A stretch of DNA of 64,000 nt, taken from NCBI RefSeq assembly GCF_030013205.1, contig NZ_CP122648.1, one strand, 5' to 3'. Position numbers: made by a program. This stretch comes from Escherichia coli (GTDB taxonomy: Bacteria; Pseudomonadota; Gammaproteobacteria; Enterobacterales; Enterobacteriaceae). Below are positions 18,001-21,000 of the stretch, one piece after another; position 1 is the stretch's first letter; each line of letters begins with the position of its first letter.

Positions 18001-21000
18001 TGGTCGGTGGCGCAACGTCAGGATATTGTGCGACGGGCAATGTGCGAATAGCCAGAATCCCCGCCAACATAATCAAAATGGCGATAACCCAGGCAAAGAC
18101 CGGGCGGCGAACAAAAAAGCGCGAAAACATCAGGCGTTGCCTCCATTAGCCTGAACTTCAACAGCCTTGACGGTCTGCCCTGAAGTGACTTTGGCAGAAC
18201 CTTCAACAATCAGTCGGTCGCCGTTGTGCAGGCCGTTCAGCACCAGCCATTTATCACCATACGTTTCTCCCGTTTCGAGCGTTCGCTGCTCTACTTTATT
18301 GTCTTTATTCACCACCAGCGCAGTTGCATTGCCTTTAGCATCGCGCGTGACGCCCTGTTGCGGCGCGAGAATAGCGTCTTCCATCACGCCTTCATCGACA
18401 CGAGCGCGAACAAACATTCCCGGTAATAACTGCTGTTGTGGATTGGGGAAAATCGCCCGTAATGTCACCGAACCGGTAGACTCATCTACAGCGACTTCGG
18501 TGAGTTCCAGACGCCCTTTTTCGCTGTAGGTTGTGCCATCTTCCAGAATAAGTGAGACGCTCATGGTGTCACTGTTGGTCGCCAGTGACTGTTTACGCAG
18601 ACGTAATAAATCGACACTGGAGCGAGTGAGGTCGACATACATTGTCTCCAGACCACGAATAGTCGTTAACGCTGTATCTTGCGACGCGGTCACCAGTGCG
18701 CCAGGGGTTACCGACGAAATGCCAATTCGCCCTGAAATCGGTGCGGTTACCGTGGTCCAGTCAAGATTAATGCGCGCAGTTTCCAGCGCGGCTTTTTTCG
18801 CCTCTACACTGGCTTTATCTTGTGCACAGGTAGACTGAGCATCATCAGCATCCTGTTGTGAAACACCGTTCTCTTTCACCAGTCGGGCATAACGCTGCGC
18901 TTTCTGGCAATCGGCTTTTACCAGTGCCTGTGCTTGTTGTAATGCTGCCCGAGCTTCATTCCATGCAGCCTGATAACTGGCCGCATCAATCTGGTAGAGA
19001 GGCTGTCCAGCCTTGACCAGATCCCCTTCCTTAAATAAGCGTTTCTGGATAATTCCCCCAACCTGCGGACGTACTTCAGCACTGAGCGCAGCACTGGTGC
19101 GTCCGGTTAATTCACTGACTACCGAGACCGGTTGAGATTTGACTGTAACAACGCCGACTTCTGTTTCTGACGGGGATGAATTGTTACTTTGCGTATTATC
19201 ACAACCAGATAAGAGCAGCATTGCCACTACAGATGTTGCTATATACTTCATTATTTTCTCCAGGGTGAGAAATACCCTCCTCATTAAAATTAATGAGGAT
19301 ATGTCAGGGATATTCAGTTATAACGAACCCGCATCGCGAAATGAATTTCGCAATGAAATAAGGGGGATTAATATCCCCCGCTATTGGTTAATTCTGTTCT
19401 TATTTATTTATCAACATACTAACAATATCCTGATATATTTCCTGCAGATGTTGTGGATCGCTTTTTTGCGGTGTTAAACGACGATAAACCGTACCTTCCA
19501 TCATGGTAGCAAACACTTCAACGCAGCAACGAATGTGCTCGTCGCTAAGATGGGGATGCATTCTTTTCATATGTGCACAACCGTTAGCGAACATTCTGGC
19601 GTCAGCTTCTTCAAGCATTGCCATAACCCGCGGGTTGCGTGTGGCTTCTGCAGCCACTTCCAGCATCAGCGCGTCGTCGTCCTCATTTAAGGATTTACGC
19701 AAGGCAAGGACTTCCGGGAAGTGATCGGTACGCGCGTCAATGTCCATTTGGGCAATACGAAAGTCGATGATACGGCGAACCATCTCTTCAATAATGGCGT
19801 CTTTGTTGGCGAAGTAACGATATATCTGACCCACGCTAAGCTGAGCTTCGCTGGCAATTTGCGACATACTGGCGGCATGAAACCCGCAGCGACGAAAACA
19901 CCGACGGGCGGCGTTAATGATTTCATCCTGACGCTGTTTGTGGCGTATCTCCAGCTTGCTGGTCATTTCTGTCTCCTGGCCTATCACTTGGTGAGAATGA
20001 TCGTTCTCATTTTTGCTGATTATACGTTTCTCCAAAGTAATGGAAAGTATTTTTATCTTATTCATGGTGCATATTCTGATAATGAAGAGATTGTGGAGAT
20101 TATGTGAAGATAGTTGACAATATTAAGTTGGGGTCAATTCATCAGAAAGGCTGCTACTTGTTGTCGCCAGTTCTGTTTTCATCATCAAACTTATCGGAGC
20201 TAATACGAATAGTTTCAGAGTCAGATTCTATAAGATATTCCCCCAACCTACCCCTTGCAGGCGTCAAGAGTAGATAACGCAAAATGCTCTGTACCGCAGC
20301 TTCTCTCCGGTACAGAAAGCGCAACTATAGCCACCCACAGCCAGGTTGATTATAATAACCGTTTATCTGTTCGTACTGTTTACTAAAACGACGAATCGCC
20401 TGATTTTCAGGCACAACAAGCATCAACAATAAGGATTAAAGCTATGGGTTTTCTTTCCGGTAAGCGCATTCTGGTAACCGGTGTTGCCAGCAAACTGTCC
20501 ATCGCCTACGGTATCGCTCAGGCGATGCACCGCGAAGGAGCTGAACTGGCATTCACCTACCAGAACGACAAACTGAAAGGCCGCGTAGAAGAATTTGCAG
20601 CTCAATTGGGTTCTGACATCGTTCTGCAGTGCGATGTTGCCGAAGATGCCAGCATCGACACCATGTTCGCTGAACTGGCGAAAGTTTGGCCGAAATTTGA
20701 CGGTTTCGTACACTCTATTGGTTTTGCACCTGGCGATCAGCTGGATGGTGACTATGTTAACGCCGTTACCCGTGAAGGCTTCAAAATTGCTCACGACATC
20801 AGCTCCTACAGCTTCGTTGCAATGGCAAAAGCTTGCCGCTCCATGCTGAATCCGGGTTCTGCCCTGCTGACCCTTTCCTACCTTGGCGCTGAGCGCGCTA
20901 TCCCGAACTACAACGTTATGGGTCTGGCAAAAGCGTCTCTGGAAGCAAACGTGCGCTATATGGCGAACGCGATGGGTCCGGAAGGTGTGCGTGTTAACGC

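What the first reader, a model, noticed from the sequence alone, without database searches (positions are those of the whole stretch)
19278..19379. Palindromes and hairpin between the TetR gene and the efflux operon: candidate operator and terminator
The 115-bp interval between the TetR stop and the adaptor start has three dyad elements: TCCTCATTA-AAAT-TAATGAGGA (19278-19299, 9-bp arms, about 18 nt upstream of the adaptor RBS), GCGAAAT-GA-ATTTCGC (19336-19351), and the stem-loop GGGGGAT-TAAT-ATCCCCC (19362-19379) just after the TetR stop. TetR-family repressors bind palindromic operators of about this size. The layout suggests a terminated regulator gene followed by a separately promoted, TetR-controlled pump operon, rather than the usual divergent arrangement.
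Basis: seen in the sequence. Interest (0 to 1): 0.4.

Follow-up and report, generated by a model that had tools for sequence, protein, structure and literature searches.

The report
Conserved RNA hairpins between eefR and eefA
The three palindromes between the TetR repressor gene eefR and the efflux-pump gene eefA of E. coli are real, but they are conserved RNA hairpins inside one five-gene transcript, not the repressor's binding sites, which were mapped by experiment upstream of eefR.

Summary
The window is E. coli chromosome carrying the accessory eefRABCD efflux operon between sapF and fabI. Three perfect dyads in this 148-nt spacer occurred in 1 of 5000 shuffles.

The operator reading is contradicted:
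- A 2025 paper mapped the EefR operator (TGAGAACGATCATTCTCA) upstream of eefR, at window 20009..19992.
- Its "nonspecific" EMSA competitor maps to window 19252-19397, which is this whole spacer. It did not compete.
- In 28 orthologous loci the operator is essentially invariant upstream of eefR, and the spacer has no conserved operator-like site.

The dyads are three positionally conserved hairpins (H1, H2, H3). Their stem sequences differ between genera but stay complementary: 92% of cells paired, 21 of 26 pairs with compensatory changes, 0 of 500 shuffles as good. Loop lengths vary from 3 to 10 nt. No Rfam family matches, and the two eef papers read here do not mention them.

The best reading is a structured intercistronic RNA. 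H1 is a weak, leaky terminator after eefR. H2 and H3 would act in mRNA stability, processing or the eefA leader. These functions are inferred, not shown.

The parts
19400..19966 (-). eefR, TetR-family repressor and first gene of the eefRABCD operon
   Evidence: RefSeq CDS mapped from NZ_CP062203. TetR-family HTH hits. Named EefR in PMC12482432 and PMC12817139.
19362..19379 (-). H1: stem-loop GGGGGAU-AUUA-AUCCCCC (-11.6 kcal/mol), starting 21 nt after the eefR stop codon. Weak or leaky intrinsic-terminator candidate.
   Evidence: Positional orthologues with different stems in other genera. All 7 pairs show both-side changes.
19352..19361 (-). U-rich tail of H1 (UUAUUUCAUU). Its last four bases are already the 5' arm of H2.
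   Evidence: At least 4 U in the first 8 nt in 20 of 27 loci.
19332..19355 (-). H2: stem-loop CAUUGCGAAA-UUCA-UUUCGCGAUG (10 pairs including one U.G; -10.4 kcal/mol)
   Evidence: RNAalifold predicts it even on a plain MAFFT alignment, with 6 of 9 pairs compensatory. 97.7% of cells paired.
19300..19331 (-). Mostly unpaired A/U-rich linker between H2 and H3. Candidate endonuclease (RNase E) entry site; this is inferred.
   Evidence: Unpaired in the centroid fold. An A/U-rich stretch is present at this place in all genera.
19278..19299 (-). H3: stem-loop UCCUCAUUA-AUUU-UAAUGAGGA (-10.0 kcal/mol), ending 26 nt before the eefA start codon. Its 3' arm carries an SD-like GAGGAGG.
   Evidence: Orthologous hairpins end 25-30 nt before the ATG in most loci and 17-22 nt in several. 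7 of 9 pairs show both-side changes.
19266..19283 (-). Operator look-alike TGAGGAGGGTATTTCTCA, one mismatch from TGAGAA-N6-TTCTCA. Probably non-functional.
   Evidence: It carries the same TGAGAA>TGAGGA change as the published non-binding mutant M1. It lies inside the non-competing probe. It is not conserved: the three other Escherichia loci have 3 mismatches and other genera have no site.
19254..19271 (-). Weak hairpin UUUCUC-ACCCUG-GAGAAA (about -4 kcal/mol) covering the eefA Shine-Dalgarno. Seen only in the window allele; tentative.
   Evidence: Every other locus, including the three other Escherichia loci, has no UUUCUC here (the Escherichia loci have UGUUCA, UAUUCA or UGCUCA), so the pairing is not conserved.
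19249..19261 (-). eefA ribosome-binding region: GGAG (19261..19258), a 6-nt spacer, then ATG (19251..19249)
   Evidence: UUCACCCUGGA(A/G)AAA is the best-conserved primary sequence of the spacer.
18130..19251 (-). eefA, RND periplasmic adaptor (lipoprotein)
19992..20009 (-). The experimentally defined EefR operator TGAGAACGATCATTCTCA, 25 nt upstream of the eefR start codon
   Evidence: PMC12482432: EMSA, deletion and point mutants. Exact match located in the window. Perfect half-sites in 26 of 28 orthologous loci.
20019..20046 (-). PeefR promoter candidate: -35 TTTCCA, 16 nt, -10 TATAAT (10 of 12 matches)
   Evidence: CTTTCCA...CGTATAAT is conserved upstream of the operator in most genera, and in Enterobacter the operator abuts or overlaps the -10. 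A 316-bp fragment upstream of eefR drives gfp and is repressed by EefR; one of its two primers was not found in the window.

Best explanation
The three dyads are three RNA stem-loops (H1, H2, H3) in the 148-nt intercistronic spacer of the autoregulated eefRABCD operon. They are transcribed from the - strand of the window. Transcription starts at the single EefR-controlled promoter upstream of eefR, and the transcript crosses the spacer into eefABCD.

- H1, with its U-rich tail just after the eefR stop, would act as a weak intrinsic terminator or attenuator. It could also be a 3'-end protective hairpin. Part of the transcripts would then end after eefR. This would keep repressor mRNA in excess of pump mRNA and help keep the pump cryptic when PeefR is repressed.
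- H2 and H3 flank an A/U-rich single-stranded linker. They most likely set the stability or processing of the two mRNA halves.
- H3 lies about 26 nt upstream of the eefA start. It probably forms a structured leader that insulates the A-rich, unstructured eefA ribosome-binding site.

Shown: the hairpins exist, they are conserved as structures, and they are not EefR operators. Also shown, by others: the operon is co-transcribed and controlled from PeefR.

Inferred: partial termination at H1, and the stability or translation roles of H2 and H3.
For: Identity of the locus
- The gene order is sapF-eefDCBAR-fabI. The locus is present in about 2040 of 5426 complete E. coli genomes.

Hairpins as conserved structures
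- Independent MFE folds of 26 orthologous spacers recover hairpins at these three positions in most species. A zone-restricted dyad search finds one at each position in all 27 spacers.
- A structure-aware alignment of 27 spacers was made. On it, 92.2% of cells are paired, against 76% in shuffles and 45-55% when partners are slid.
- 21 of 26 pairs have changes on both sides (116 cells), and 0 of 500 shuffles reach this. Each helix has 7 such pairs.
- H2 is recovered by RNAalifold on a plain MAFFT alignment.
- Loops vary from 3 to 10 nt. That does not fit a dimeric protein site with fixed half-site spacing.
- G.U exceeds A.C among non-Watson-Crick cells, 49 against 19. The U-tail follows H1 on the sense strand.
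- The spacer fold has z = -4.2.

Single promoter-operator
- The operator and promoter upstream of eefR are conserved across genera.
- No promoter-like site lies on the coding strand of the spacer.
- Published RT-PCR crosses every junction. Inactivating eefR raises eefA 83-fold, eefB 28-fold, eefC 43-fold and eefD 27-fold.
- The published authors report that eefA upstream sequences are required for phenotypes from plasmid-borne eefAB, eefABC and eefABCD. This fits a functional leader.

Dispensability and copy number
- One lineage (L032) has a 48-nt spacer without hairpins but an intact operator. This fits a modulatory role rather than an essential one.
- The element is single-copy per genome and has no Rfam match.
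Against: - No transcript-end, processing or half-life data exist for this spacer, so the function of each hairpin is inference.
- H1 is a poor terminator by sequence. Its stem is 5-8 bp and its U-tract is interrupted. A recalled d'Aubenton-Carafa-type score is positive in only 4 of 27 loci and is +1.9 in the window. In Phytobacter and E. asburiae the tail is not U-rich.
- The pair counts come from an alignment fitted to the structure, and the sequences are related by descent. The shuffle control therefore overstates significance.
- The G.U excess comes largely from one inherited U.G position in H2. The numbers of pair columns with any G.U or any A.C are about equal, 11 against 10.
- The sense strand folds more stably than the antisense in only 18 of 26 spacers.
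Confidence: 0.6

Rival explanations
1. One or more of the dyads are operators of the adjacent TetR repressor (EefR). The pump genes have their own EefR-controlled promoter in the spacer, downstream of a terminated regulator gene.
For: - TetR proteins bind palindromes of about this size.
- A TGAGAA-N6-TTCTCA look-alike with one mismatch overlaps the first dyad, at 19283..19266.
- The published competition used only 1x and 2x competitor, so weak binding is not excluded.
Against: - The published EMSA used exactly this spacer (window 19252-19397) as the nonspecific competitor, and it did not compete, whereas cold operator probe did.
- The look-alike has the same half-site change as mutant M1, which abolished the shift.
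- The look-alike is absent outside Escherichia and degraded in the other Escherichia loci.
- The true operator is invariant across genera, while the dyads change sequence and spacing.
- No promoter-like site lies on the coding strand.
- RT-PCR shows co-transcription.
- The authors' genome-wide MAST search found no second site.
Confidence: 0.04
2. The dyads act as double-stranded DNA sites for another protein. Candidates are H-NS or another nucleoid protein nucleating on the AT-rich apex of H3, or an unidentified transcription factor. Such a protein would silence or activate the pump genes.
For: - The spacer is 62% A+T.
- eefABC of Klebsiella aerogenes is reported to be H-NS-silenced (cited in PMC12817139).
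- UUAA/AUUAAU-like sequence persists in the upper part of H3 in several genera.
- The authors mention possible unidentified regulators.
Against: - The G+C-rich stem bases co-vary to keep complementarity while the sequence changes. A fixed DNA-binding specificity would not produce this.
- Loop or half-site spacing varies from 3 to 10 nt.
- No promoter-like element for such a factor to act on was found in the spacer.
Confidence: 0.07
3. The spacer is a signal-responsive cis-regulatory RNA. It could be a regulated attenuator, a thermosensor, or a leader bound by a small RNA or a protein. It would switch read-through at H1 or translation of eefA in response to a cue, adding a post-transcriptional layer to pump control.
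For: - Three hairpins are conserved with covariation, and short single-stranded motifs are conserved too: GAUGCGG after H2 and UUCACCCUGGA before the SD.
- The window allele has a weak hairpin covering the SD, and H3 sequesters an SD-like GAGGAGG.
- The eefA upstream sequence is needed for plasmid phenotypes.
- No known Rfam family matches.
Against: - The hairpins are simple and independent. There is no multi-helix junction, no conserved loop or bulge that could form a ligand pocket, and no conserved alternative terminator/antiterminator pairing.
- The SD-covering hairpin and a candidate fourth helix are not conserved.
- One lineage lacks the whole element.
Confidence: 0.15
4. The dyads are copies or remnants of a repeated palindromic element (REP/BIME, ERIC or a MITE) with no locus-specific function.
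For: - Enterobacterial intergenic regions often hold such repeats.
- One relative (L004) has a 124-nt ERIC-like insertion in this same spacer.
Against: - The 171-nt region occurs once per genome (median 1 place, highest 2) in 2040 E. coli genomes.
- The covariance model finds no second copy in the window; the best other hit has E = 1.7.
- The element stays at the same place relative to eefR and eefA across genera.
Confidence: 0.02

Closest known systems
EefR operator / PeefR of the E. coli eefRABCD operon (Virulence 2025, PMC12482432)
   Same: This is the same locus and the same regulator. The published 18-bp operator TGAGAACGATCATTCTCA is present unchanged in the window at 20009..19992.
   Different: The finding concerns the eefR-eefA spacer, not the region upstream of eefR. 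The spacer was that paper's non-binding control. The paper does not use the words hairpin, stem-loop, terminator or attenuation.
Co-directional TetR gene plus RND operon with the operator in the intergenic region, for example CmeR-cmeABC of Campylobacter jejuni (from my own knowledge)
   Same: A TetR-family gene lies directly upstream of, and in the same orientation as, a tripartite RND pump operon.
   Different: In that system the inverted-repeat operator and the pump promoter lie between regulator and pump. Here the operator and the only recognisable promoter lie upstream of the regulator. The regulator is the first cistron of the operon, and the intergenic dyads do not bind it.
Autoregulated efflux operons with the repressor as first gene, for example emrRAB and marRAB of E. 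coli (from my own knowledge)
   Same: The repressor gene is co-transcribed with its target genes from one self-repressed promoter.
   Different: Those repressors are MarR-family. I know of no conserved three-hairpin spacer described for them, and I did not test this here.
Internal attenuators of operons, for example the rplL-rpoB attenuator and terminator T1 of rpsU-dnaG-rpoD (from my own knowledge)
   Same: A hairpin with a U-rich tail between cistrons lets only part of the transcripts continue. This sets unequal expression of upstream and downstream genes.
   Different: Partial termination at H1 has not been measured. H1 scores as a marginal terminator at best.
Intercistronic stem-loops that give segmental mRNA stability, for example malE-malF REP, Rhodobacter puf and papBA (from my own knowledge)
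   Same: Stable hairpins flank an unstructured cleavage-prone linker between cistrons. They are conserved as structure rather than as sequence.
   Different: This is not a repeated (REP) element, and it is single-copy. Processing and half-lives are untested.

Membership tests
EefR (TetR-family) operator | Matches the experimentally defined motif TGAGAA-N6-TTCTCA | tested here: not met
   None of the three dyads matches. The nearest site in the spacer (19283..19266) has one mismatch, identical to the non-binding M1 mutant.
EefR (TetR-family) operator | Bound specifically by the purified repressor | not testable with these tools
   In the published EMSA, the 146-bp fragment made with eefA-gel-F/R maps to window 19252-19397 and covers all three dyads. 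It served as nonspecific competitor and did not compete at 1x-2x. Direct labelling of this fragment was not reported.
EefR (TetR-family) operator | Sequence conserved in orthologous loci whose repressor recognises the same motif | tested here: not met
   The operator upstream of eefR is perfect in 26 of 28 loci. The spacer has no site with 3 or fewer mismatches in 24 of 28 loci. Stem sequences differ between genera.
EefR (TetR-family) operator | Fixed half-site spacing, and overlap with a promoter | tested here: not met
   The distance between arms varies from 3 to 10 nt. There is no sigma-70-like match on the - strand of 19252-19399.
Rho-independent (intrinsic) terminator (H1) | G+C-rich stem-loop shortly after a stop codon on the transcribed strand | tested here: met
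   GGGGGAU-AUUA-AUCCCCC, -11.6 kcal/mol, starts 21 nt after the eefR stop codon. It is conserved in position with compensatory changes.
Rho-independent (intrinsic) terminator (H1) | Uninterrupted U-tract immediately 3' of the stem | tested here: inconclusive
   The tail is UUAUUUCAUU, with 5 U in the first 8 nt but interrupted. At least 4 of 8 are U in 20 of 27 loci. The recalled d-score is +1.9 in the window and positive in only 4 of 27 loci.
Rho-independent (intrinsic) terminator (H1) | Transcripts end there in vivo or in vitro | not testable with these tools
   Published RT-PCR shows that at least some transcripts read through. No 3'-end mapping is available.
Conserved structured RNA (Rfam-type family) | Base pairs supported by covariation across species | tested here: met
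   92.2% of cells paired; 21 of 26 pairs with both-side changes; 0 of 500 shuffles reach this; slid controls give 45-55%. Caveat: the alignment was fitted to the structure.
Conserved structured RNA (Rfam-type family) | Match to a described Rfam family | tested here: not met
   Only chance-level hits (E of 2.5 or more, far below gathering scores) in 19100-20500.
REP/ERIC-type repeated palindromic element | Many dispersed copies per genome | tested here: not met
   One place per genome (median 1, highest 2) in 2040 E. coli genomes. No second copy in the window.

The most novel reading that the evidence does not exclude
The H1-H2-H3 spacer is an undescribed, conserved cis-regulatory RNA of the Enterobacteriaceae eef operon. 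It would tune how much transcription or translation passes from the repressor gene into the pump genes, possibly in response to a signal. Its absence from expression constructs could explain why two groups disagree on whether EefABC exports drugs.
Probability: 0.12. Interest if true: 0.55.

Novelty: new member of a known kind. Interest (0 to 1): 0.27.

Why it matters
eefRABCD is a seventh, normally silent RND efflux system. It is reported from the E. coli phylogroups most associated with infection (PMC12817139), and mutations in eefR unlock multidrug resistance (PMC12482432).

Knowing that the repressor acts only at the promoter upstream of eefR fixes the basic wiring of the operon. The eefR-eefA spacer is instead a conserved structured RNA.

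This points to a second, post-transcriptional layer of control: leaky termination, mRNA processing, or leader-dependent translation. Such a layer could set the ratio of repressor to pump.

It also gives a concrete, testable reason why constructs with and without the native eefA upstream region behave differently in the two published studies.

Beyond this operon the mechanism would be ordinary. Intercistronic hairpins and attenuators are a well-known kind of element.

Tried and rejected
1. RNAalifold on the plain MAFFT alignment A1 predicted only H2. The arms of H1 and H3 were out of register because loop lengths differ. I solved this with a covariance model seeded from three gap-free Escherichia spacers.
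2. A candidate fourth helix, AGGGU/ACCCU just before the SD, is not consistently paired across genera. I dropped it.
3. A mini-ORF starting at the conserved GAUGCGG was rejected. The AUG becomes ACG, GCG or GUG in Kluyvera and Phytobacter together with compensating changes in the opposite arm (pair 80/103). There is also no usable SD spacing.
4. For an internal promoter, the scan found nothing on the coding strand, and inspection by eye across species found nothing conserved.
5. The strand test by G.U against A.C counts and by sense against antisense MFE gave only a weak preference for the sense strand. I did not use it as a main argument.
6. I wanted the eefA upstream region of Klebsiella aerogenes, whose eefABC lacks eefR, to see whether H2 and H3 travel with eefA.
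   - The protein search failed once and a second request was never sent.
   - A further search then returned only Escherichia and Shigella proteins among the 120 listed.
   - The 2005 paper on that operon is not held.
7. Rfam gave nothing.
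Full report
**What the locus is.** The window is E. coli chromosome. On the - strand lie an MFS exporter (12474-13637), an outer-membrane factor (13646-15019), an RND permease (15023-18130), a periplasmic adaptor (18130-19251) and a TetR-family regulator (19400-19966). They sit between sapF and fabI. The 1.3 kb around the finding is 100% identical to several complete E. coli genomes, and 2037 of 5426 genomes hold at least 80% of it. This is the accessory eefRABCD operon described in two recent papers (PMC12817139 and PMC12482432).

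**The observation.** All three dyads are present at the stated coordinates.
- The first, 19278-19299, has 10-bp perfect arms around a 2-nt centre.
- The second, 19336-19351, has 7-bp arms. As RNA on the coding strand it extends to 10-11 pairs (19355..19332) with one U.G.
- The third, 19362-19379, is a G+C-rich stem followed on the coding strand by UUAUUUCAUU. The terminator scan picked it up.

Three such dyads in 148 nt arose in 1 of 5000 dinucleotide shuffles, and the window-wide density predicts 0.17. The spacer RNA folds with z = -4.2.

RefSeq starts the gene at 19251, which gives a lipoprotein signal peptide.

**The operator question has been answered by experiment.** PMC12482432 reports the following.
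- EefR represses a gfp fusion to the 316 bp upstream of eefR.
- Purified EefR shifts a 129-bp probe from that region.
- Deleting the palindrome TGAGAACGATCATTCTCA, or changing a single base of it, abolishes the shift.
- A MAST search found no second site in the genome.
- RT-PCR amplifies all intergenic junctions from cDNA.
- Inactivating eefR raises eefA, eefB, eefC and eefD by 83-, 28-, 43- and 27-fold.

I mapped the paper's primers onto the window.
- The shifted probe is 19967-20095, and the operator is 20009..19992.
- The 'nonspecific probe' made with eefA-gel-F/R is 19252-19397. That is the entire eefR-eefA spacer, with all three dyads.
- It did not compete, whereas cold operator probe did. 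Competition was tried only at 1x and 2x, so very weak binding is not excluded.
- The strain used (ATCC 35218, Table S5) differs from the window in this spacer at a single base, 19286, the apical pair of the first dyad.

**An operator look-alike.** The repeat search paired 19266-19283 with the true operator. On the coding strand it reads TGAGGAGGGTATTTCTCA, one mismatch from TGAGAA-N6-TTCTCA. The mismatch (TGAGAA to TGAGGA) is exactly the change in the paper's mutant M1, which no longer shifted. The site also lies inside the non-competing probe. It is not conserved: the three other Escherichia loci have three mismatches and other genera have nothing.

**Comparative evidence.** A scan of one genome per species with EefR returned 48 loci. 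In 27 of them eefR is followed by eefA after 135-161 nt. The exceptions are one locus with a 124-nt ERIC-like insertion and one with a 48-nt spacer.
- Upstream of eefR, the operator half-sites are perfect in 26 of 28 loci, window included. The site ends 19-29 nt before the start codon.
- A CTTTCCA...CGTATAAT promoter precedes the operator in most genera.
- The repressor's specificity and its site are therefore fixed across genera.
- The spacer behaves in the opposite way. Its primary sequence is only 62% identical per column. Yet separate MFE folds recover hairpins at these three places in most species, and a dyad search restricted to each zone finds one in all 27 spacers.
  - H1 starts about 20 nt after the stop codon.
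  - H2 follows 6-7 nt later.
  - H3 ends 25-30 nt before the eefA ATG in most loci and 17-22 nt before it in several.
- Stems differ between genera. For H3 they are UCCUCAUUA/UAAUGAGGA in E. coli, CCCUGUUAA/UUAACAGGG in Enterobacter, UCCUCGC/GCGAGGA in Kluyvera, and CCCCGU/ACGGGG in Dryocola. Loops range from 3 to 10 nt.

**Covariation.** RNAalifold on a plain MAFFT alignment recovered H2, with 6 of 9 pairs compensatory. For H1 and H3 the arms were out of register. I therefore built a covariance model from three gap-free Escherichia spacers with the three helices specified. With it I aligned the 27 spacers it detected at E below 0.1. The results on that alignment were:
- 92.2% of cells form standard pairs, against 76.0% in column shuffles and 45-55% when partners are slid by 1-3 columns.
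- 21 of 26 pairs, and 116 cells, show changes on both sides.
- 0 of 500 shuffles reach the observed values.
- Each helix has 7 such pairs.

Two caveats apply. The alignment was fitted to the structure, and the sequences share ancestry.

The pattern is complementarity kept while sequence and loop length change. That is what an RNA (or single-strand) structure gives, not a binding site for a protein of fixed specificity.

Strand evidence is weaker.
- G.U cells outnumber A.C cells 49 to 19, largely through one inherited position in H2.
- The sense strand folds better in 18 of 26 spacers.
- The U-rich tail after H1, and the direction of the operon, point to the sense strand.

**What each hairpin probably does.** H1 is a 7-bp G+C stem (-11.6 kcal/mol) with a U-rich but interrupted tail.
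- The tail has at least 4 U in the first 8 nt in 20 of 27 loci.
- A d'Aubenton-Carafa-type score, with the formula recalled from memory, is +1.9 in the window and positive in only 4 of 27 loci.

Together with the published read-through, this makes H1 at most a weak, leaky terminator or attenuator, or a 3'-end protective hairpin. Placed between an autoregulated repressor gene and its target genes, it would favour repressor mRNA over pump mRNA. That fits a pump that is cryptic until eefR is lost.

H2 and H3 bracket an A/U-rich unpaired linker present in all genera. This is the usual context for endonucleolytic processing with hairpin-protected ends.

H3 ends 26 nt before the start codon. After it comes the most conserved primary sequence of the spacer, UUCACCCUGGA(A/G)AAA, which contains the Shine-Dalgarno. 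H3 could therefore be part of a leader that keeps the ribosome-binding site open.

[quoted passage not shown] All of these functions are inferred. No end-mapping or half-life data exist.

**Alternatives.**
- No sigma-70-like site lies on the coding strand of the spacer.
- No Rfam family matches.
- The element is single-copy per genome and has no second copy in the window. It is therefore not a REP-, ERIC- or MITE-type repeat.
- A DNA-level role for H-NS or another factor cannot be excluded for the AT-rich apex of H3. It does not explain covariation of the G+C stem bases.
- A signal-responsive RNA switch is possible but has little in its favour. The hairpins are simple and independent, loops are not conserved, and no conserved alternative pairing was seen.
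- One lineage (L032) lacks the element altogether while keeping the operator.

**Verdict.** The 'terminator' idea is partly supported. The 'operator plus separate promoter' idea is contradicted by published experiments and by comparative sequence.

What remains is a conserved three-hairpin intercistronic RNA. It has no Rfam match, and neither eef paper read here mentions a hairpin or terminator in this spacer. It is a new member of a familiar kind of element. Its interest is modest and local to the regulation of a clinically relevant cryptic efflux operon.

Noticed in passing
window 19967-20065: The longest ORF for the TetR gene (19400-20065) is 33 codons too long. The RefSeq start is 19966. 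The PeefR -35/-10 (20046-20019) and the published operator (20009-19992) lie inside the spurious N-terminal extension.
   Followed up: yes
window 19266-19283: An operator look-alike, TGAGGAGGGTATTTCTCA, overlaps hairpin H3. It has the same one-base change as the published non-binding mutant M1. It is present in the window and in ATCC 35218, degraded in the three other Escherichia loci, and absent in other genera.
   Followed up: yes
window 19254-19271: A weak 6-bp hairpin, UUUCUC-ACCCUG-GAGAAA, covers the eefA Shine-Dalgarno. None of the other loci examined, Escherichia included, has UUUCUC at this place (other genera mostly have GUUCAC), so the pairing is seen only in the window allele.
   Followed up: partly
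L004:3565-3842 (Escherichia sp. MOD1-EC7003): A 124-nt insertion with ERIC/IRU-like sequence (GTAAGCTCCAGGGGATTCAC...) sits between the eefR stop codon and H1. The three hairpins downstream are intact.
   Followed up: no
L025, L026, L028, L030, L036, L039, L040, L042, L044, L047 (Erwinia, Winslowiella, Pantoea, Lonsdalea, Brenneria): The eefR homologue is followed directly by an eefD-like MFS gene, with no eefABC. In most of these loci the stop and start codons overlap (ATGA). This suggests a two-gene eefR-eefD module, with the hairpin-rich spacer confined to the version that carries eefABC.
   Followed up: partly
L008 and L009:3565-3711 (Kluyvera georgiana, Kluyvera genomosp. 3): Here eefR is followed after 143 nt by eefD, without eefABC. 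The spacer still has an H2-like hairpin (CGUCGCCG-UAACC-CGGCGGCG) and an H3-like hairpin (GGGGUUA-ACGC-UAACCCC). This may be a deletion derivative of the five-gene operon.
   Followed up: no
L032:3553-3606 (Klebsiella sp. BIGb0407): The eefR-eefA spacer is only 48 nt and has no hairpins, while the operator upstream of eefR is perfect. This is a natural 'deletion' of the element.
   Followed up: partly
window 24515-24541, 27432-27458, 27901-27930, 28466-28491, 41066-41091, 46206-46236: These are the other perfect dyads with arms of at least 10 bp in the window. The first lies just after the rnb stop codon, and 28466-28491 is a 13-bp-arm palindrome with no spacer. They are probably terminators.
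   Followed up: no
window 20288-20316: An imperfect 12-nt inverted repeat (TCTGTACCGCAG / CTCCGGTACAGA, 5 nt apart) lies in the divergent eefR-fabI region, about 130 bp upstream of fabI.
   Followed up: no
window 19411-19439 (+ strand): A promoter-like match with a TG extension (TCAACA-17-TATATT) lies inside the 3' end of eefR, pointing antisense to it.
   Followed up: no
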